Of a stretch of DNA of 64,000 bases, positions 3-59,388 are shown piece after piece; position 1 is the stretch's first letter, and every line of letters begins with the position of its first letter. The notes under the pieces were generated by a model that was not told the origin of the DNA, made no database searches, and was given only the letters and a program-made list of their open reading frames with translations. A program made the translations under genes and the position numbers. Source of the stretch: an uncultured virus (IMG/VR IMGVR_UViG_3300027851_000025) (lineage: Duplodnaviria; Heunggongvirae; Uroviricota; Caudoviricetes); the IMG/VR virus record IMGVR_UViG_3300027851_000025, one strand, 5' to 3'.

Positions 3-803
3 AGCTATCTATTCACTGGCCCTCAAGGATGTGGGAAAACCACCCTGGCCCGGATTGTAGCCAAAGAATTGGGATGCGATGGCTACAATCTCAAAGAGCA
101 GAATGCAGCTGACTTTCGTGGAATTGACAGTGTCCGTGAAATAGTCAGGAAGATGAGGCTCCAGGGTTTATCCGGAGGACGGCGGGGATTCATCCTTGAT
201 GAAATCCATAAACAGACAAATGATGCTCAGAACGCCCTTTTAAAAGCCCTGGAAGAACCTCCTGAACATGTATATTTCTTTCTCTGCACTACCGATCCAC
301 AGCAGCTTCTGAAGACGGTCAAATCCCGATGTTCTGAATATACTGTTCAACCTCTTACCGAGGCCCAATGCATTTCACTTCTGGAAGATGTTTCAGGTAA
401 AGCTGGGGTAAAAATACCCAAGGAGGTTCTGGAGCAGATTGCCAAGGATAGCCAGGGCCATCCCCGGCAAGCTCTCACCGTTCTGGAACAGGTGATGGGA
501 CTTCCTGAGAGAGAGATGCTTAGAGCAGCAAAGCGGTCTGTGGATATTGAGTCCCAAGCCATCGACCTTTGCCGGGCATTGATCAAAGGGGATGACTGGA
601 AGAAGATTGCCGGCATACTGCAGGGTCTCGGGAAAGAGGAGCCAGAGAGCATCAGAAGGATGGTATTGAGCTATTGTGAGAAAGTTTTATTGAGCTCAGG
701 GGATTCCCAGGCTTTTGTGGTGATGGATTGCTTCAGGGAGCCCCTGTATAATACTGGAAGGCCTGGACTGGTAATGGCCTGTTATGAAGTGCTCAATGGA
801 TAA
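3..803 (+). CDS. dnaX: DNA polymerase III gamma/tau clamp loader subunit, 5' partial
   Basis: Frame is open from nt 3: YLFTGPQGCGKTT (Walker A), ILDEIH (Walker B), AQNALLKALEEPP, SRC motif. Confidence 0.92.
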   Translation, partial: SYLFTGPQGCGKTTLARIVAKELGCDGYNLKEQNAADFRGIDSVREIVRKMRLQGLSGGRRGFILDEIHKQTNDAQNALLKALEEPPEHVYFFLCTTDPQQLLKTVKSRCSEYTVQPLTEAQCISLLEDVSGKAGVKIPKEVLEQIAKDSQGHPRQALTVLEQVMGLPEREMLRAAKRSVDIESQAIDLCRALIKGDDWKKIAGILQGLGKEEPESIRRMVLSYCEKVLLSSGDSQAFVVMDCFREPLYNTGRPGLVMACYEVLNG

Positions 804-50330: not shown

Positions 50331-51873
50331 ATATCAGAGGAAGGCGATTGAAGAGAGCCCAGAACGACAGATAGTCCTGGGTATGGTAGTTTCAGATCGA
50401 TTCATCAAGGAAGTTCAACCAATCCTCCGCCCGGATCTCCTAGAGTCACCATGGGCCATGAAGGTGATTGGTTGGTGCCAGAACTATCATACCAAGTTCG
50501 GCAAAGCGCCTGGAGTCCACATTGAAGACATCTTCCGACAAGAGGTGGAACAGGGCAATCTGGATGACGATCAGGAAAGCATTATCTCCAAGCTGCTGGG
50601 GACTCTCTCAGACGAGTATGAGCGGTCCAAAGAGTTCAATGCCGAGTTTCTTCTGGATAGAGCTGAAAAGTATTTCGAGTCGAGAAACCTGGAGAAGAAG
50701 GCGGCAAACATCAAGGCTCTATTGGGCAGAGGAGATGTGGCTGCAGCTCAGGCCGAGTTCAATTCATATCAGTCAGTTTCCAGGCCCGGGTCAATGGGGG
50801 TTGATCCCTTTTCAGACCGAGATTCCATGCTGGCGGCTTTTGAATATTCTTCAGAGCCATTATTCAGGATGCCCGGCGCGGTAGGTAGATTCCTGAACGA
50901 CTTGATGGAAAGGGAGGCATTCGTCACTTTACTTGGGCCGGAAAAGCGTGGAAAAACATGGATGCTGATTGAAATATCATTGTGGGCAAGAAGAGCCGGA
51001 TTGAATGTGGCTTTCTTCTCTGCTGGGGATATGTCACAATCTCAGCTGGAGGTCAGGTTTGGAATCAGATTTGCCGGCAGATCCAATCGGCCAAAAAACT
51101 GTGGGGAGATCCTTGTTCCGGTTCTTGACTGCAAGAGGAATCAGGACGACACCTGCGACAACCCAAACAGGGCAGGGACCTTTGCTATTATGGACCCGAA
51201 CACTAAGCAACTTCTCCCGTATGAAGAATGTCCAGACCATAATCCATGCACCTACTGTATGAAGAACCCAGGCGAACAGCCAGGGTATAAAGGGGCATCT
51301 TGGTTGAGAGTTCGCCCTCCTGTCCCTGTTCTGGATGGCCCTGGAGCGGCAAAAGCGGCGCAGAGAATGGCAAGGAGATGGGGAAAGAAGGCCAGGATGA
51401 AATTAATTGCTTTCCCGAACGATACCTTGACCATTAGCCGGATAGACCAGCAACTGGATGCCTGGGAGTCGCAGGAGAGCTTTATTCCGGATGTGATTAT
51501 AATTGACTATATGGATTTGATTGTTCCAGATACCCTTCATTCGGGGGAGCAGGTCCGGCATGGAATTGGAAAGATATGGGGAGGAGTCCGAAGGATGTCT
51601 CAGGAAAGGCATTGTCTGGTCCTTTCCGCCTCCCAATCTGATACCGAGTCGTATGATACCAAATGGATCACCAGCAAGAACTTCAGTGAAAGTAAGCAGA
51701 AGAACGCTCATGTAACAGGGATGATCACCCTTAACCAAACCAGGGAGGAGAAGAGAAGAAAAGTAATGAGGTTGGGGACAATCCTGACCCGTGAAGAAGA
51801 ATTTGATGACCACAAAGGAGTAGCAATACTGCAAAGCCTGGAACAAGGCAGACCATTGATTGCCTCATTTTAA
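50323..51873 (+). CDS. dnaB: DnaB-like replicative helicase
   Basis: GPEKRGKTW, IIIDYMDL, SASQ, FSE...K. Confidence 0.8.
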   Translation: MARYQRKAIEESPERQIVLGMVVSDRFIKEVQPILRPDLLESPWAMKVIGWCQNYHTKFGKAPGVHIEDIFRQEVEQGNLDDDQESIISKLLGTLSDEYERSKEFNAEFLLDRAEKYFESRNLEKKAANIKALLGRGDVAAAQAEFNSYQSVSRPGSMGVDPFSDRDSMLAAFEYSSEPLFRMPGAVGRFLNDLMEREAFVTLLGPEKRGKTWMLIEISLWARRAGLNVAFFSAGDMSQSQLEVRFGIRFAGRSNRPKNCGEILVPVLDCKRNQDDTCDNPNRAGTFAIMDPNTKQLLPYEECPDHNPCTYCMKNPGEQPGYKGASWLRVRPPVPVLDGPGAAKAAQRMARRWGKKARMKLIAFPNDTLTISRIDQQLDAWESQESFIPDVIIIDYMDLIVPDTLHSGEQVRHGIGKIWGGVRRMSQERHCLVLSASQSDTESYDTKWITSKNFSESKQKNAHVTGMITLNQTREEKRRKVMRLGTILTREEEFDDHKGVAILQSLEQGRPLIASF

Positions 51874-51883
51874 AGGGATAAAC

Positions 51884-52228
51884 ATGATTGATCTAAAACA
51901 AAAACAACTGAAAGAATGGCAGGAAAAAAACTTCGGAATTCACGAAGACGATCTTTTGAAGTGTGCCCTTGGTATGGCCGAAGAGGTAGGTGAGGTCTGT
52001 CATCATATATTGAAAGGGGTTCAAAGAATCCGTTGTGGCGCTGACGGAATTGATAAAAAGCAGGTGGCAGACGGCATTGCTGATACTTTGATTTTTGGTC
52101 TTCAGATACTTTCTAAACTTGACTTGGATGCAGAGAAAGAGATTGCAGAAGTCATAGAAAAGGTTTTGCAACGAGACTGGATAAAAGATCCATCTGGAAA
52201 GAAAATGGACAAGCCGGTTCAGGTATGA
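51884..52228 (+). CDS. MazG-like nucleotide pyrophosphohydrolase
   Basis: W...NFG, EEVGEV, D.IAD. Confidence 0.75.
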   Translation: MIDLKQKQLKEWQEKNFGIHEDDLLKCALGMAEEVGEVCHHILKGVQRIRCGADGIDKKQVADGIADTLIFGLQILSKLDLDAEKEIAEVIEKVLQRDWIKDPSGKKMDKPVQV

Positions 52229-52272: not shown

Positions 52273-52644
52273 ATGATTTCAGTAACAAAGAAGTTTTCAT
52301 TCAGTTATGCCCATCACCTCCCCGAATATGACGGAGACTGTCAAAGGGTCCATGGTCATAACAGCAATGTGGAAGTGGAGTTTTCGAACCAGGCCCCCAT
52401 AATGCCGGCGGCATACCCGGGAATGGTGGTTGATTTCAAAATCATTAAAAAGATTATTGACCCGATCATCGATGAATTGGATCATCACGATCTCAATCAG
52501 GTAATTGTCGGCAATCCAACTGCTGAAAACATTGCTCAATGGATTGCCGACAAGATTGGGAAAACCAGTATTGGGGCTGGTTTGGTCAGGGTCCAGGTAT
52601 CTGAAACCGACGATTCTTTTGCTACCTGGAGGAAGGGAAAATGA
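52273..52644 (+). CDS. queD: 6-carboxytetrahydropterin synthase
   Basis: F..AH.L..Y.G.C...HGH, GMV.DF, LDH..LN, PTAE, ET. Confidence 0.92.
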   Translation: MISVTKKFSFSYAHHLPEYDGDCQRVHGHNSNVEVEFSNQAPIMPAAYPGMVVDFKIIKKIIDPIIDELDHHDLNQVIVGNPTAENIAQWIADKIGKTSIGAGLVRVQVSETDDSFATWRKGK

Positions 52645-53321
52645 GAGTAAATGAAATCTTTTGTTCTTTGGATGGGGAAGTAAATCAATGGGGGCAGGGC
52701 AAACCAACTGTATTCATCCGGCTCCAGGGCTGCAATCTCAGGTGTCCTTACTGCGATACCAAACAGACATGGGATTTGGAAGGGGGAGGTGAATTATCAG
52801 TTTATGAAATTATGGAAAAAGTAAACTCCTCTGGATTTGGCAAGGTCACTATAACTGGAGGGGAGCCCCTTTTTAGTCCTGAATTTGTAATGTTGGCAAA
52901 GGCTCTGGTCGGAATGGGGATTCAAATATCAGTGGAGACGAATGGAACCATCCCGATTCCGGCTGGAGCATGGGCAGATAAAATCTGTTGGGTGGTTGAC
53001 TATAAATTGGAGCTGAAACAATCCCTTGGAGAGTTCGTATCCATCTTGGGGAGAAAACCAAGCATGTGGGTAAAAATCATTATTGGAGGATATGATGATT
53101 TTTACAAGGGGATGGAAATGGTAGAGGATATCACCTTCCTTTTGCCTGATTGTAATTTTGCTTTCAGCCCCATGTTTGGGAAAACCAGTGAGGAACAGAT
53201 TTTTACCTGGATGATCGAGAATAGATATAAACACCCGACTATATTGAATAAAGTGGTGGTGAATACCCAGCTCCATAAAATTATTTTTCCAAAAGGCGAA
53301 AAAAACTTTGTTTTGCCTTAA
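52641..53321 (+). CDS. queE: 7-carboxy-7-deazaguanine synthase (radical SAM)
   Basis: EIF.SL.GE, FIRL.GCNLRC.YCDT, ITGGEP, VETNGT, QLHK. Confidence 0.92.
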   Translation: MRVNEIFCSLDGEVNQWGQGKPTVFIRLQGCNLRCPYCDTKQTWDLEGGGELSVYEIMEKVNSSGFGKVTITGGEPLFSPEFVMLAKALVGMGIQISVETNGTIPIPAGAWADKICWVVDYKLELKQSLGEFVSILGRKPSMWVKIIIGGYDDFYKGMEMVEDITFLLPDCNFAFSPMFGKTSEEQIFTWMIENRYKHPTILNKVVVNTQLHKIIFPKGEKNFVLP

Positions 53322-53346
53322 CGATATATTGTTTTCCAGGTATAAT
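53318..53346 (+). promoter_or_regulatory. phage promoter TTAACG-N17-TATAAT
   Basis: CCTTAACGA..CCAGGTATAAT. Confidence 0.82.
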
Positions 53347-53419
53347 CTAACATAAGCAAGACAGGGGAAGGTCCCCAACCAGATCAATTCGATCAACCAA
53401 AAGTACAAAGGAGAACCAC

Positions 53420-54175
53420 ATGGCCAAGAAGAAAGCAGCAAAAGCCCCAGAAGTCCCCCTGGAAGCCCTTCAGGCAGTAGCAATGGACTTCAATTCCTTC
53501 ATGAAGTTTGCCGAGGGAGATGAGATCCCGGTAGATATGGCATACGACGATCTGCTCGGCGAGCTCACCGAATGTGCTGCCCAGTTGGAAGAGTCCGATA
53601 CCATCCAGCCCGGCACCGCCGAAACCCTGACCGCCTTGGGGTTAGAGTTTGCCGCCACTGTCGCTGAGGGCGAAGCCCAGGCCGATGATGATGCCGATGA
53701 TGATGCCGATGATGATGCCGATGATGATGCCGATGATGATGCCGATGATGATGCCGATGATGATGCCGAGCCCGACAATTCGGAGCTGGTTGCCAAGGTG
53801 AACAAGGCTCGCAAGATCGACGATCTTCTGGTTATTGCCAAGGAAGAGCGGATTGCAGTTCCCCCTCCCTTCCGGAAGGACATCAAGAAGCTGAAGGAAT
53901 ATCTGGTCAAGAAACTGGAAGAAGGCCCCAAGGAGAAACCGGCCAAGAAGGAGAAACCGGCCAAGAAGGAGAAGGCGCCGCGCGGCCCGTCGGTCACGAA
54001 TATGATCTCCATGGAAATCTGCAAGAACGAGAAGGCATCAACAGAAGACATCGCCAAGGTCTTGAAAGAGAACGGAATGGTATTCAGCGACTCTACCATC
54101 AACACCACGAAGGCCGGCGTTCTGAAGGTTCTGAATTGCCTGAAAGAACTCGGTCGACTCAAGCCCATCAAGTAA
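53420..54175 (+). CDS. acidic N-terminal / basic C-terminal protein of unknown function
   Basis: Own promoter and terminator; (ADDD)7 and KEKPAK repeats. Confidence 0.7.
   Translation: MAKKKAAKAPEVPLEALQAVAMDFNSFMKFAEGDEIPVDMAYDDLLGELTECAAQLEESDTIQPGTAETLTALGLEFAATVAEGEAQADDDADDDADDDADDDADDDADDDADDDAEPDNSELVAKVNKARKIDDLLVIAKEERIAVPPPFRKDIKKLKEYLVKKLEEGPKEKPAKKEKPAKKEKAPRGPSVTNMISMEICKNEKASTEDIAKVLKENGMVFSDSTINTTKAGVLKVLNCLKELGRLKPIK
53681..53764 (+). repeat. perfect tandem repeat (GCCGATGATGAT)x7
   Basis: Read directly from the sequence. Confidence 0.95.
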
Positions 54176-54196
54176 TTCCCGACAAACTATATATTG

Positions 54197-54227
54197 AAAG
54201 GGGATGGAGGTTTCCATCCCTTTTTTT
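54197..54227 (+). terminator. intrinsic terminator
   Basis: GGGATGGA-GGTT-TCCATCCC-T7. Confidence 0.88.
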
Positions 54228-54238
54228 GGAGGATCTGT

Positions 54239-54901
54239 ATGAAAGCTATTCTCGCTTTGTCAGGAGGAATGGACTCCGCTACGGTTCTTGCCTGGCTTCG
54301 GAAAAATGGCTATGAAGTGGAATGTTTTTCTTTCTCCTATGGTTCCAAGCATAATCATTGGGAAGGAAATGCTGCCCAGAAAGTAGCAGCATTTTATGGA
54401 ATGGAACTGCAGGAATCGATTGATCTGTCAAACATCACAAAACAATTCAAATCCAATCTCCTGAAAGGCCAGGGCGAAATCCCGGAAGGCCATTATCAGG
54501 ATGAGACCATGTCGCAGACGGTGGTACCCGGAAGAAACATCATTTTTCTTTCTATCTGCGCCGGCCTTGCCTGGTCAAAAGGCGCATCCAAGATTGCCAT
54601 AGGGATTCATCAGGGAGATCATACCATTTACCCCGACTGCAGGGTAGAGTTCTACGAAGAGATGTCTAAGGCGATCTCCACCGGTACAGATGGAAATGTG
54701 GATGAGATCATCGCCCCCTTCCTCCACACCGACAAAGCAGGCATACTCGCTTGGGGCCTGAAAAACGGGGTTCCATATCACCTGACCCGGACTTGCTATA
54801 AAGACCAGCCATTGTCGTGCGGGAAATGTGGATCTTGCGTCGAGCGCCTGGAAGCCTTTGCTTCGGTCGGGATTAAAGATCCGATTGAATATGCAAAGTA
54901 G
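54239..54901 (+). CDS. queC: 7-cyano-7-deazaguanine synthase
   Basis: LSGGMDS, YG..H, VPGRN, YPDCR, TCY..CGKCGSCVER. Confidence 0.95.
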   Translation: MKAILALSGGMDSATVLAWLRKNGYEVECFSFSYGSKHNHWEGNAAQKVAAFYGMELQESIDLSNITKQFKSNLLKGQGEIPEGHYQDETMSQTVVPGRNIIFLSICAGLAWSKGASKIAIGIHQGDHTIYPDCRVEFYEEMSKAISTGTDGNVDEIIAPFLHTDKAGILAWGLKNGVPYHLTRTCYKDQPLSCGKCGSCVERLEAFASVGIKDPIEYAK

Positions 54902-54909
54902 AATAATTT

Positions 54910-55134
54910 TTATTTTTTATGCAAGCCATAAACTGGATGAGTATAGTTATTAATCCAGTTTATGAGGTCTAAGTCTGCCGATTGAGTTTTAGTATAAGCC
55001 GAACGAATTGGATGTTCTTTGGGTATTTTGTTGATATGTTTATGAATAAGACCCAAAGCTTCTTCTAATTTTGATTCGGCTTTGGAAAAATCTAAAAGTT
55101 GTTCATCTGAAAAAGTAAGCATTTTAGCCTCCAT
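54910..55134 (-). CDS. small AT-rich protein antisense to the que cluster
   Basis: 74-aa ORF filling the intergenic gap. Confidence 0.5.
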   Translation of the reverse strand: MEAKMLTFSDEQLLDFSKAESKLEEALGLIHKHINKIPKEHPIRSAYTKTQSADLDLINWINNYTHPVYGLHKK

Positions 55135-55193
55135 AGAGATTGGTTTAATGTATTTAATTATTTTCCGGCTGAAATTGCAAGAGGATTCAACAT

Positions 55194-55415
55194 ATGCAAA
55201 GTAGAAGGGAGTCGCTGGCAGAAGCCTCCTTGAATATCCTCACTGGATTTCTGGTATCCTGGCTGATCACCCCTCCCATCCTGCAGATGTTTGGATACTC
55301 AATATCCATGAACAAGGCGTTTGGCGTCACTGTAATCTATACGGTGTTTTCATTTCTGCGTTCTTACATTTGGCGTAGGATTTTCAACAGGAGAGTAAAA
55401 TGGCAAAAAAGATAG
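55194..55415 (+). CDS. small two-helix membrane protein
   Basis: QS...SL.E...N...G..S..RSY..RR.FN. Confidence 0.65.
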   Translation: MQSRRESLAEASLNILTGFLVSWLITPPILQMFGYSISMNKAFGVTVIYTVFSFLRSYIWRRIFNRRVKWQKR

Positions 55416-56278
55416 TCCTTTCAAACGAACAGATTCAGGAGCGGTGTGCCGACATAGCCAATGACCTGCCAGCTCACAAAAACTTCTATGGGGTGCCAAG
55501 GGGAGGAATCGCTCCTGCTTATTTACTGGCCGGCATGTCCGATGGCTTTGTGGTTTCGAATCCGGAAGAAGCAGATTTCTTTGTCGATGATCTTATCGAC
55601 TCCGGAAGAACCCGGGCAGAATATCGCGAGAGATTCCCCTTCACCCCATTCATCTTTTTGTATGAAAAGATCGATTCCTCCCAGTGGTTCGTATTTCCTT
55701 GGGAAGTTGACAATTCCGGCAATGATACTTCTGGCGAAGACATCTTTATCCGACTCCTGGAGTTCATCGGTGAAGATCCGAGCAGGGAAGGGCTTTTGGC
55801 TACTCCCAAGAGGATGATGCGGGCCTGGACTCATTGGACTCAGGGATACGGCAAATCTCCGAAAGATGTCTTCACTTCATTCGAAGATGGTGCGGAAGAC
55901 TATGACCAGATGCTTCTGGTCGATCCTATTCCATTCTTCTCCCATTGCGAGCACCATCTGGCCATATTCTTTGGGGAGATCCACATCGCCTATATCCCGC
56001 ACAAGAAGATTGCCGGCCTGTCAAAGTTCATCCGGCTGGCAAGGATCTTCTCTCAGCGCCTGCAAGTCCAGGAAAGACTGACGGTTCAGATTGCCAACGC
56101 CATCTTCAACAGCGGCCTGGAAACCCCGGGAGTCGGGGTATTCATCAAGGCCCGGCACATGTGTATGGAATCCAGGGGGGTTTCCACTTTTGGGACCTAC
56201 ACCAAAACCTCGGCTCTCCGGGGGGTATTTATGAAGCCGGAGGTTCGGGAAGAGTTTTTCAACATGATCAAGTTGTAA
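55400..56278 (+). CDS. folE: GTP cyclohydrolase I with N-terminal phosphoribosyltransferase-like domain
   Basis: N-terminal GVPRGG, VDDLIDSG.T, FPWE; C-terminal REGL..TP.R, SHCEHH, GLSK, LQVQERLT, H.CM..RG. Confidence 0.92.
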   Translation: MAKKIVLSNEQIQERCADIANDLPAHKNFYGVPRGGIAPAYLLAGMSDGFVVSNPEEADFFVDDLIDSGRTRAEYRERFPFTPFIFLYEKIDSSQWFVFPWEVDNSGNDTSGEDIFIRLLEFIGEDPSREGLLATPKRMMRAWTHWTQGYGKSPKDVFTSFEDGAEDYDQMLLVDPIPFFSHCEHHLAIFFGEIHIAYIPHKKIAGLSKFIRLARIFSQRLQVQERLTVQIANAIFNSGLETPGVGVFIKARHMCMESRGVSTFGTYTKTSALRGVFMKPEVREEFFNMIKL

Positions 56279-56311
56279 TCCATTTTCCAATTTAACCAAA
56301 AGAGGAAATAA

Positions 56312-56842
56312 ATGAAAAAGTATCTGTGGCCGGCACTGTACCTGTCCAGCATTCTTCTTGGAAACTTCTTTGTCATGTGGTTTGGGATCGTCAAGTTTGC
56401 CGGCCTGACCTTCCCTGCCGGCGTTATCTTTGTCGGTCTGACCTTCTCCTTCCGAGATTTTGTTCAACGCCAATGGGGAGACTACGCCTGCTGGATCTGG
56501 ATGGGCCTGGCCACAGTCATTACCTTCTTCCTCAACCGGCAAATTGCCATCGCCTCGGTCACTGCCTTTTTTGTTTCAGAGCTGGTCGACTGGGCTTGTT
56601 TCAAATACTTGAAGTTTTCATTCAGGAAGAGGATATACATCTCAAACCTGTTCTCCTGCCCATTGGATTCTATAATCTTCGTTACCCTGGCATTTGGATG
56701 GTTTTGGCCGGCGATCTGGGGTCAGGCTCTGATCAAGTATCTTTCCGGGTTATTGGTCCTACCTTTCCTTGGTTTGAAGGATCGCATTCCTGCCGACAAT
56801 AACTATACCGACATCTTCCCTTCTTACGGAGTTGGAAAGTGA
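56312..56842 (+). CDS. yhhQ: VUT-family queuosine precursor transporter-like membrane protein
   Basis: N.., G.TF..RD..Q, IA.AS..AF..SE..D, SN..S..LDS..F...AFG. Confidence 0.75.
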   Translation: MKKYLWPALYLSSILLGNFFVMWFGIVKFAGLTFPAGVIFVGLTFSFRDFVQRQWGDYACWIWMGLATVITFFLNRQIAIASVTAFFVSELVDWACFKYLKFSFRKRIYISNLFSCPLDSIIFVTLAFGWFWPAIWGQALIKYLSGLLVLPFLGLKDRIPADNNYTDIFPSYGVGK

Positions 56843-57049
56843 AAGTTTATCTTGCCGGGGTTCCAGGGGGGTTCTCCAGGAGATTGTAAGAGGGAGAGGG
56901 AACTCTCCATTAAGTTCAAAAGAAGACTACATTCTTACTATCACATCAAAATAACAAAAAGTAATCTGATCAATCCAAATGAAAATATATCTAGCATCGG
57001 GATATTCTGTAATGAATACCAAAGGCAGAGAGAGAGAGATGCTAAGTAG
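56839..57049 (+). pseudogene. mini-module 1, frameshifted at G6 (56866-56871)
   Basis: MKVYLAGVPGG stops early; +1 frame gives SPGDCKRERE..KRRLHSYYH. Confidence 0.7.
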
Positions 57050-57167
57050 ATTTGGGGGCGCGTATAAAAGATTAGTATCCTATTATGATTTGTCAAGAGG
57101 CAATAAAATACTTAATATAATAAATCTGAATACGAATGAAAATATATCTTGCCGGAAATACCCCTGA
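56979..57167 (+). CDS. mini-module 2, intact
   Basis: MKIYLASG..RERE..KRLVSYY; (AG)6 tract. Confidence 0.75.
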   Translation: MKIYLASGYSVMNTKGREREMLSRFGGAYKRLVSYYDLSRGNKILNIINLNTNENISCRKYP

Positions 57168-57318
57168 CAGAGAGAGAGAGGAGAAAATTCTTTTACAGAA
57201 AAACCTGACCAGAAAAAGACTTTTGGCTTTCCATTACCTTCTCTGTGATAAGAATGTAAAATTAATGTTTGATCTATGGACAAATGAAAATAAACTTTGC
57301 AGGAACTCCAGGAACTAG
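57136..57318 (+). CDS. mini-module 3, intact
   Basis: MKIYLAGN..RERE..KRLLAFHY; (AG)6 tract. Confidence 0.75.
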   Translation: MKIYLAGNTPDREREEKILLQKNLTRKRLLAFHYLLCDKNVKLMFDLWTNENKLCRNSRN

Positions 57319-57419
57319 AGGGAGAGAGAGATTGGCAAAAGATTTTCAATAAGCGCCTGCTCTCCTTCTGGAACTATACAAATAATGAATTTAACATCCC
57401 ATTTGCTTTTGAGGAATCA
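57284..57419 (+). pseudogene. mini-module 4, frameshifted at (GA)5; its +1 frame is continuous with the DpdA-like ORF
   Basis: MKINFAGTPGTRGRER stops at 57352; +1 frame gives DWQKIFNKRLLSFW...MKNKIDIFLDSGAF. Confidence 0.72.
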
Positions 57420-58313
57420 ATGAAAAACAAAATTGACATCTTTCTCGACTCCGGGGCCTTTTCCGCATTCACTCAGAATGTTCAAATCGACATCGAAGAA
57501 TACATTGCCTTCATCAAGGAACACCAGTCGAATCTGGAAGTATATGCCAATCTAGATGTTATAGGTTCGCCGAAAGGGACCTGGATGAATCAGAAGATCA
57601 TGGAGCGTGCCGGCCTGAATCCCCTCCCCTGTTTCCACTACGGGGAGGATCTGAAGTGGCTCCACAGATATCTGAATACCGGGTATGAGTATATTGCCCT
57701 TGGAGGCATGGTTCCGATCTCGACCCGTGATCTCATTAAGTGGTTGGATACCCTCTTTGCAGAGCACTTGACCGACTCCAATGGTTTCCCGATAATCAAG
57801 GTCCATGGCTTCGGCTTGACCAGCTTGACTCTCATGCTTCGCTACCCTTGGTTCAGTGTCGACAGTACTTCCTGGGTTATGACCGGTAGAATGGGCTCTA
57901 TCTACGTTCCCAAGCGAACCAAGGGGCAATGGTCATATCATGAGGAAGCGGTGAAAATAGCCGTATCTACGCGCTCTCCGAGCAAGAAGGATGCCAACCA
58001 GCATATCTCCACCCTATCCCCGAAAAGAAGGCAGGTCATCCTCGATTACTTGGACGAAAAAGGATATGCCCTTGGGTCCTCCAGGTTTCGGAAAGAGTCC
58101 GAGAAATACGAGCTCAAAGAGAATGAACGATGGGATGGCAAGGCTGTAAATGGAAAGAGGGGCGTGGAGGAAGTCATCGAACCGGGAATCAGCAATGACT
58201 ACAAACTCAGGGACGAGATGAACATTATCTATTTCCTCGATCTGGAAAAGTCCTTTCCGCCGTATCCCCGGCAATTTCAGGTCAAGAAGAGAGTGGGGTT
58301 GAAAGGACTATGA
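57420..58313 (+). CDS. dpdA: TGT/DpdA-like 7-deazaguanine transglycosylase core
   Basis: FLDSGAFS, LDVIG, P.FH.GE, ALGG, VHGFG.T, SVDSTSW; GAGG RBS; adjacent preQ0 genes. Confidence 0.75.
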   Translation: MKNKIDIFLDSGAFSAFTQNVQIDIEEYIAFIKEHQSNLEVYANLDVIGSPKGTWMNQKIMERAGLNPLPCFHYGEDLKWLHRYLNTGYEYIALGGMVPISTRDLIKWLDTLFAEHLTDSNGFPIIKVHGFGLTSLTLMLRYPWFSVDSTSWVMTGRMGSIYVPKRTKGQWSYHEEAVKIAVSTRSPSKKDANQHISTLSPKRRQVILDYLDEKGYALGSSRFRKESEKYELKENERWDGKAVNGKRGVEEVIEPGISNDYKLRDEMNIIYFLDLEKSFPPYPRQFQVKKRVGLKGL

Positions 58314-58495
58314 AAGTATTTCTTGCGACTTGGGTTTTGGAGCCTTCCCAGGGTCAGACCTTGACAAAGATGGAGGCTGGCAATAGGCTTTTGAGTTACT
58401 TCCATACCAAGCAGAAAGAAGAGGTCTTTTCCGTATATTGTAGACGAGGTGTAAATGAAGATATATCTGGCAGGAAACGGGGCAATGCCAAGTGA
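58310..58495 (+). CDS. mini-module 5, intact
   Basis: MKVFLAT...NRLLSYFH. Confidence 0.7.
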   Translation: MKVFLATWVLEPSQGQTLTKMEAGNRLLSYFHTKQKEEVFSVYCRRGVNEDISGRKRGNAK

Positions 58496-58650
58496 AGAGA
58501 GAGAGAGTATATTCAGAAAAAGAATGCTTCTTTATTCATCAGCGCCTCTTCTCTTTCTTTGAAATTCAGCCTGGAAGATTTGCCCACTCTCAATGGAATT
58601 GGATAATCCAAAACAAGGGGAAAATTCATGAAGAGGATCGAGGATGTTAA
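58455..58650 (+). pseudogene. mini-module 6, frameshifted at (AG)6 (58496-58507)
   Basis: MKIYLAGNGAMPSEERE; +1 frame gives VYSEKECFFIHQRLFSFFE. Confidence 0.7.
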
Positions 58651-59218
58651 AACTGGGATGGTAAGAAGAAAAAACGTTACTTCCTATTTCGAAAGGGAAC
58701 TTACCAAAAGAGGGAAAGGATATATCAAAGCTATTGGACCATCATTTATCGAAGAAGAATTAACCCCAAAACAAATACATGATCTCAATCTTCCGACAAA
58801 TAGAACCTTGAGAAATAATTCAAACAGTCTTGGTTTGACCTGGCAGTTTAAGAATGAAATAACCAGAATCAGCAGACTCGTTGAAATAAGAGAATATGGG
58901 GATAATTATTTGAAATCACCATCTATTTATAATGGTGATATTGATAAAGCGTATGATTTCTTTAGTCCACATATTTTCCTGGTAGTGGAATATGATAATG
59001 AAAATAACCCATGTAAATTTAGTAACTTAGTAGAAGTAGGAAGTATCCCAAAGAAAATGTTTTACTTTTCCGAATCAAAAGGGAATCGAAATCGAATAAA
59101 TATAAAAGGATTCTCCAGATATTTTACTATGTATAAAATGAGCAAACACCGGAGTGGTATTTTGAATCGGCCAGATGTAATCGATCAACTGGATATTATC
59201 CTTTCCGGTAAAGAATGA
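58628..59218 (+). CDS. AT-rich hypothetical protein, possible PD-(D/E)xK/DUF559-like nuclease
   Basis: YDFF....FLVVEYD pattern only. Confidence 0.4.
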   Translation: MKRIEDVKTGMVRRKNVTSYFERELTKRGKGYIKAIGPSFIEEELTPKQIHDLNLPTNRTLRNNSNSLGLTWQFKNEITRISRLVEIREYGDNYLKSPSIYNGDIDKAYDFFSPHIFLVVEYDNENNPCKFSNLVEVGSIPKKMFYFSESKGNRNRINIKGFSRYFTMYKMSKHRSGILNRPDVIDQLDIILSGKE

Positions 59219-59388
59219 AAATCTATCTAGCCAGCACCGCTCCAGGAACGGAAGGAACTGAAAAAAACCAGTTGATCTCCATCCCAATTCCAAAGCGCCT
59301 GCTCTCTTATCACCATATCAAATTCAATCAGTTCGGAACCCGGGTCGTCTTTAATGCCTTAACCACAAGGAGGAACAAAACCAAATGA
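59215..59388 (+). CDS. mini-module 7, intact (57 aa, not in ORF track)
   Basis: MKIYLASTAPGT...KRLLSYHH; ATGA overlaps at both ends. Confidence 0.75.
   Translation: MKIYLASTAPGTEGTEKNQLISIPIPKRLLSYHHIKFNQFGTRVVFNALTTRRNKTK

What the first reader, a model, noticed from the sequence alone, without database searches (positions are those of the whole stretch)
57284..58313. One extra GA converts the DpdA-like gene into a full-length fusion
Seen: with (GA)6 the frame reads MKINFAGTPGTRGRERDWQKIFNKRLLSFWNY...EESMKNKIDIFLDSGAFSAF without a stop. With the observed (GA)5 it stops after 22 codons and only the internal ATG at 57420 remains. Inference: the tract toggles between a self-contained enzyme and a headless core that is inactive or must recruit another module.
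Basis: partly seen in the sequence, partly recalled or inferred. Interest (0 to 1): 0.8.

Follow-up and report, generated by a model that had tools for sequence, protein, structure and literature searches.

The report
Split phage DpdA with slippery heads
A phage enzyme that swaps guanine in DNA for a protective look-alike base is cut from its first quarter by a short GA repeat one unit short, and six small neighbouring genes encode alternative versions of that quarter, so the phage may assemble the enzyme from switchable parts.

Summary
Observation confirmed: (GA)5 at 57322-57331 stops the N-terminal piece after 22 codons; one more GA puts it in frame with a DpdA1-like core (57420-58313) and restores the 42-nt spacing of 13 of 14 in-frame orthologous pieces. 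It is not an assembly error: contigs of two other studies carry (GA)5; no (GA)6 allele was seen. Across 157 related loci, 68 of 291 heads are frameshifted, 63 of them carrying a GA or G/C tract; orthologous tracts differ by whole units in both directions. Cores keep their own ATG, 34 of 117 are headless, stand-alone heads are under purifying selection, and a model docks a stand-alone head into the core (0.90, best control 0.01). Best reading: a two-part deazaguanine DNA transglycosylase whose interchangeable heads are contingency loci; that heads change target sequence is inferred, untested. Not found in seven literature searches; this scan noted the same system six times on other genomes.

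The parts
57284..57419 (+). TPG-type head (first two strands and helices of the barrel), out of frame: first half stops at 57352, second half is in frame with the core
57322..57331 (+). (GA)5 tract, one unit short of the in-frame spacing (40 nt against 42 nt)
   Evidence: allele confirmed in X2, X3 contigs
57411..57415 (+). GAGGA Shine-Dalgarno-like site before the core ATG
   Evidence: sequence
57420..58313 (+). Headless DpdA1-like transglycosylase core, 297 aa; D10, D46, H129, D148 invariant; about 80-aa C-terminal part not matched by cultured DpdA
   Evidence: phrog_887 E 5e-58; 44% to phage 9g DpdA over 217 aa
56839..56985 (+). VPGG-type head, out of frame at G6 (56866-56871); end approximate
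56979..57167 (+). SGY-type head, in frame, AG tract 57027-57039
57136..57318 (+). NTP-type head, in frame, AG tract 57169-57180; a relative in run X4 has one AG more
58310..58495 (+). W-type head, in frame, no tract; docks into the core in the model
58455..58630 (+). NGA-type head, out of frame at AG tract 58496-58507; relatives in run X4 show +AG and -2; end approximate
59215..59388 (+). APG-type head, in frame
52273..56842 (+). preQ0 pathway genes: QueD 52273-52644, radical SAM (QueE position) 52641-53321, QueC 54194-54901, FolE 55400-56278, Vut_1 family transporter 56312-56842
   Evidence: Pfam

Best explanation
The phage makes preQ0 and inserts it into its DNA with a two-part DpdA1-type transglycosylase. 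The catalytic core is translated from its own ATG (57420) and lacks the first two strands of the barrel; a 50-residue head, supplied by any of several small paralogous genes, closes the barrel next to the two catalytic aspartates. Most head genes carry a GA or G/C tract that slips during replication and turns that head on or off (contingency loci). In this lineage one head (TPG type) has lost its stop and sits in frame with the core, so its tract decides between a covalent head-core chain (six GA) and no TPG head (five GA, the allele seen). SHOWN here: anatomy, tract variation among relatives, selection on heads, kept internal ATG. MODELLED: head-core docking. INFERRED: reversible switching (about 0.75), complementation in trans (about 0.7), and that different heads change target motif or modification level, as bet-hedging between restriction enzymes and defences that attack modified DNA (about 0.4).
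For: Tailed phage with FolE/QueD/QueE-like/QueC next door. 68 of 291 heads in 157 non-redundant loci are frameshifted; 63 of 68 carry a tract against 54 of 219 in-frame heads (odds ratio 38.5) and 94 of 6798 background windows. TPG heads: 13 of 14 in-frame have a 42-nt spacer; out-of-frame ones have 38, 40 (x5), 44 (x6), 46, 47. L040 and L146: 2853 bp, no mismatch, one indel, in a head's G run; L013 and L131 differ by one GA in a head tract. No main core was broken in 157 loci. ATG 4-15 codons before FLDSG in 36 of 39 fused, 21 of 21 broken-head and 50 of 57 other cores, against 18 of 36 in distant single-chain relatives. 34 of 117 cores are headless; 21 of 24 headless and 14 of 14 broken-head loci with full flanks keep an intact stand-alone head. 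dN/dS 0.12 over 28 pairs of stand-alone heads. L001, with a nearly identical core, carries a different head fused; head types are scattered over the core tree. Natural TPG fusion L063 folds as one DpdA/TGT barrel from residue 1 (pLDDT 87.9; 7ui4 Z 15.8, rmsd 4.4, 272 aligned). Core plus stand-alone W head: score 0.90, best of 3 controls 0.01 (mark reached by 116 of 157 solved and 2 of 215 mismatched pairs; runs agree in at least 94% of contacts, partner pLDDT at least 82); head 2-5 pairs with core 146-148 and head 26-30 with core 7-9. In Salmonella DpdA the loops after strands 1 and 2 are proposed to contact DNA (PMC10164549 passages).
Against: No (GA)6 allele of this tract in 4 runs; (GA)5 is the consensus in three studies, and the tract is interrupted and short. 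6 of 8 core-linked TPG heads are out of frame, and neither in-frame one has a long tract. The docking pass may come from likeness to solved single-chain TGT/DpdA barrels. A strong Shine-Dalgarno match precedes the internal ATG in only 12 of 39, 5 of 21 and 23 of 57 cores by a crude test. 3 of 24 headless loci show no intact head within the flank. Loci are related, so the counts are not independent; the head finder is a motif search tuned on this clade and misses phage 9g's own N-terminus; pairs for dN/dS were chosen at 70% identity or more, which lowers the ratio. No evidence here on enzyme activity, target motif, expression or host.
Confidence: 0.6

Rival explanations
1. Tolerated decay: Arg-Glu codons make a mutable repeat by accident, and redundant heads let any one be lost; the frameshift is a neutral lesion, not a selected switch. 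The two-part enzyme is real, the bet-hedging is not.
For: (GA)5 is constant in three studies; the tract is interrupted; W-type and TSV-type heads mostly lack tracts; 4 heads carry plain stop codons.
Against: 24 of 28 TPG heads keep a perfect tract of 9 nt or more although synonymous codons break it in 4; different head families use different repeats (GA, G, C) at the same part of the gene; broken heads keep both halves recognisable.
Confidence: 0.22
2. Plain on/off switch: only the covalent fusion is active; free heads are regulators or inhibitors that plug the core unproductively.
For: Precedent in T2 agt (PMC12633550); 41 of 62 core-linked heads are in-frame fusions; a docking model cannot tell productive from inhibitory binding.
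Against: 34 of 117 cores have a stop within 30 codons upstream and can never fuse by slippage, yet all 126 aligned cores keep D10, D46, H129, D148.
Confidence: 0.1
3. Recoding: RNA polymerase slippage or ribosomal frameshifting on the tract makes some fusion from the (GA)5 allele, so no DNA change is needed.
For: Most core-linked TPG heads are out of frame (6 of 8), and the allele is stable.
Against: Shifts go both ways (44 against 24) and tract length varies in DNA, unlike a fixed programmed frameshift; transcriptional slippage is not excluded.
Confidence: 0.06
4. Assembly or sequencing error at a repeat.
For: Repeats are error-prone; only assemblies were seen.
Against: Same allele in contigs of three studies; no broken main core in 157 loci although cores hold tracts at background rate.
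Confidence: 0.02

Closest known systems
Phage DpdA1 (Enterobacteria phage 9g gp3, CAjan, iggy; PHROG 887)
   Same: 44% identity to 9g DpdA over core residues 7-217; same DSG, LD, HGFG and S-x-DS motifs; same FolE/QueD/QueE/QueC neighbourhood.
   Different: Cultured members seen here are single chains (9g 317 aa); none of 237 matching phage records covers 80% of the core; the W head found no match in 50,697 records. Here the first quarter is detached, multiplied and repeat-switched.
Bacterial DpdA (Salmonella Montevideo, PDB 7ui4; NCBIfam NF041059)
   Same: Best structural match of the natural fusion, Z 15.8, tied with TGTs.
   Different: 26.9 bits against a cut-off of 200; no CxCxxC zinc motif in the core; no DpdB/C seen.
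Phage contingency loci (T2 agt; PMC12633550)
   Same: Repeat in a DNA-modification gene giving reversible frameshifts.
   Different: There A runs switch one whole enzyme off; here GA and G/C tracts act on several small parts of one enzyme. The preprint has 0 mentions of DpdA, deazaguanine or dinucleotide.
Phase-variable methyltransferases and switchable HsdS specificity subunits of type I restriction systems (recalled; seen only in search listings)
   Same: One catalytic part, alternative small parts, repeats or recombination choose among them.
   Different: Bacterial methylation; HsdS is a separate domain, whereas these heads are a quarter of the catalytic barrel; specificity role untested here.

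Membership tests
Phage DpdA1 | Sequence similarity to phage 9g DpdA | tested here: met
   44% over 217 aa, E 1e-58; phrog_887 E 5e-58
Phage DpdA1 | TGT-type barrel with catalytic aspartates and conserved histidine | tested here: met
   Fold (natural fusion L063); D10, D46, H129, D148 in 126 of 126; match to Asp95/Asp256 of PMC10164549 is inferred from motif order
Phage DpdA1 | Encoded with preQ0 pathway in a phage | tested here: met
Phage DpdA1 | Single chain holding the whole barrel | tested here: not met
   Core starts at the third strand; head out of frame: hence filed as a variant
Phage DpdA1 | Inserts a 7-deazaguanine into DNA at a motif | not testable with these tools
   needs LC-MS and nanopore
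Bacterial DpdA (NF041059) | Reaches the curated cut-off | tested here: not met
   26.9 against 200 bits
Contingency locus | Simple repeat in the coding sequence whose length sets the frame | tested here: met
Contingency locus | Length varies by whole units among relatives | tested here: met
   X4 contigs for two neighbouring tracts
Contingency locus | High-frequency reversible switching within the population | tested here: inconclusive
   only contigs available; (GA)5 in X1, X2, X3; no (GA)6 seen

The most novel reading that the evidence does not exclude
A naturally split barrel enzyme with a combinatorial set of plug-in quarters: each head carries the loops that read the DNA sequence, each is switched by its own repeat, so one phage population paints different deazaguanine patterns on its genome (up to 2^5 head sets from the five tract-bearing heads here). 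Since GA is the known target motif of DpdA1 (PMC10484667), the GA tracts would themselves be modified, and the enzyme could feed back on its own switching rate.
Probability: 0.3. Interest if true: 0.88.

Novelty: new variant of a known kind. Interest (0 to 1): 0.7.

Why it matters
What sets DpdA target motifs (GA only in iggy, GA and GGC in CAjan) is open; a natural panel of interchangeable heads on one core makes it directly testable and could give a reprogrammable DNA base-exchange tool. It would also extend phage contingency loci from single on/off genes to a modular epigenetic switchboard, and is a natural case of a barrel enzyme completed in trans. Standard annotation misses it: the heads hit no Pfam or PHROG family.

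Tried and rejected
No whole genome is held for this window. Pfam: no family for the core frame or the three heads scanned; PHROGs none for the 4 heads and the head half scanned. PDB by sequence: nothing meaningful. ESM Atlas: no usable hit for the W head. Sequencing runs: no RNA holder listed and only contigs, so expression and rare alleles could not be read; the X4 contig ending at 57331 is not counted as evidence. The automatic fused/headless labels were wrong for many distant relatives and a few close ones, so its label counts were not used; replace them. Silent-cassette model (heads as donors recombined onto the core) considered and set aside: heads keep start codons and dN/dS 0.12, and three lie downstream; recombination at the shared head starts does occur (L001 against the window). 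Dinucleotide bias of the window (GA 1.19) is uninformative. Tree is a quick one with 53 of 136 inner branches open; used only to show scatter. Literature: searches listed no paper on a split or phase-variable DpdA; subscription papers and supplements were not seen.

Full report
Observation. The ATG at 57284 gives 22 codons and a stop; the next frame is open from 57297 to 58313 and holds the rest of the N-terminal piece and the enzyme. The tract is (GA)5 at 57322-57331, so two more bases join the frames. Four of the five GA/AG tracts of five or more units in the window lie within 57027-58507; 0.33 are expected per 64 kb. Contigs of runs X2 and X3, from other studies than the probable source X1, span the tract without a gap; no (GA)6 allele was seen in the 4 runs laid, all contigs.

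Setting. The window is a tailed phage (terminase, portal, head, tape measure, DNA polymerase; 18 of 21 proteins scanned hit PHROGs). QueD, a radical SAM enzyme, QueC, FolE and a Vut_1 transporter lie just upstream. The core matches phrog_887 and phage 9g DpdA at 44% over 217 aa, and falls far below the bacterial DpdA cut-off. I infer dPreQ0; no QueF or ArcS was found among the proteins scanned, which were not all of the window's.

The piece at 57284 is one of seven paralogous mini-genes of the form MK[IV]YLA...RLLS[FY]: 56839, 56979, 57136, 57284, then the core, then 58310, 58455, 59215. Three are out of frame (G6, (GA)5, (AG)6), four intact. The W-type head aligns to residues 1-38 of natural full-length enzymes (probability 94%). 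A natural in-frame fusion of the TPG type (L063) folds as one barrel (pLDDT 87.9) whose best match is DpdA 7ui4, Z 15.8, rmsd 4.4, 272 aligned, tied with TGTs. The head is thus the first two strands with their helices (strand numbering inferred from the model).

Relatives. Four scans gave 200 loci; with the window, 3 lacked the core motif and 41 were dropped as duplicates, leaving 157. Of 291 heads found by motif search, 68 are frameshifted, 219 in frame, 4 carry a stop; 63 of 68 frameshifted and 54 of 219 in-frame heads hold a GA tract of four or more units or a G/C run of six or more, against 94 of 6798 background and 18 of 1309 core windows. Stand-alone heads occur in 67 of 75 close loci with full flanks and 2 of 27 distant ones, though the search is tuned to the close clade. 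Of 62 core-linked heads 41 are in frame, 20 frameshifted (19 with a tract), 1 has a stop. No main core is broken; 7 loci have a second paralogue, one of them frameshifted.

This head type. Of 28 TPG heads 20 are stand-alone (12 in frame, 8 out) and 8 core-linked (2 in, 6 out). Thirteen of 14 in-frame ones have 42 nt between the two motifs; the window has 40; other broken ones have 38, 40, 44, 46 or 47. So six GA is the canonical length. The nearest cores (L028-L031) have the same layout with tracts of 11, 17, 17 and 19 nt, all out of frame, and differ in which other heads are on. Near-identical pairs differ at head tracts: L040/L146 (sole difference in 2853 bp) and L013/L131; most other near-identical pairs show no indel. 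In run X4, relatives at 85-95% show +AG at 57168 and both +AG and -2 at 58495, probably from different strains.

Two-part enzyme. The internal ATG is kept in 36 of 39 fused, 21 of 21 broken-head and 50 of 57 other close cores, against 18 of 36 distant ones; a strong Shine-Dalgarno match is present in a minority, and in the window. 34 of 117 close cores have a stop within 30 codons upstream, and four catalytic-site residues are invariant in 126 of 126 aligned cores. Stand-alone heads have dN/dS 0.12 over 28 pairs picked at 70% identity or more. L001, 99% identical in the second half of the core, carries another head type fused and lacks three upstream heads and 58472-59213, with breakpoints at head starts and at the core ATG. 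Core plus W head scored 0.90 against a best control of 0.01 (mark reached by 116 of 157 solved and 2 of 215 mismatched pairs; 94% contact agreement, partner pLDDT at least 82), with the head closing the barrel beside D148 and D10; the pass may reflect likeness to solved single-chain barrels.

Mechanism. Slippage during replication turns single heads on or off; the core, made from its own start, takes whichever heads are on; at 57322 the on state would be a covalent fusion. That heads alter target choice is inferred from their hypervariable loop after the first strand and from PMC10164549 (passages and section 31 seen), which proposes that the insertion after strand 1 shapes the DNA-binding surface and the one after strand 2 may read sequence. 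Against rapid switching of this tract: it is short, interrupted and constant in three studies.

Literature. 10.1101/2023.04.13.536721 (passages: DpdA1-4, 0 mentions of frameshift); PMC10484667 (passages: GA motif); PMC6884629 (passages); PMC12633550 (first of six parts and a term search: phage contingency loci, none on DpdA). Seven searches listed no description of this system; supplements were not read. Among cultured phages no record covers 80% of the core and the W head has no match. Six earlier notes of this scan describe the same layout on other genomes; I had reached this reading before opening them, and they are not independent support.

Verdict. Real; a new variant of phage DpdA1. Interest 0.7.

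Noticed in passing
window 58628-59218: 196-aa ORF inside the head array, absent from L001 together with the NGA head; no Pfam or PHROG hit; Atlas gives viral hypothetical clusters and weak PD-(D/E)xK nuclease-like leads.
   Followed up: partly
L001 2040-3000 and L026 420-2318: An intein-like insertion of about 320 aa in the core just before SVDS, next to the putative nucleophile D148; intein label is my reading of the C...N ends.
   Followed up: no
L006, L032, L073, L098, L134, L138, L144: A second, shorter DpdA-like paralogue within about 1.5 kb of the core.
   Followed up: no
window 55400-56278: FolE has about 115 extra N-terminal residues outside the Pfam match; an earlier scan note calls such a piece phosphoribosyltransferase-like.
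   Followed up: no
window 53420-54175: 251-aa acidic and lysine-rich ORF with (DDDA)n repeats inside the preQ0 cluster; no Pfam hit.
   Followed up: no
window 55194-55415 and 51860-52228: DUF7220 protein and a weak MazG-like protein in the cluster.
   Followed up: no
window 507-516: The only other (GA)5 tract, inside an open frame near the window start.
   Followed up: no
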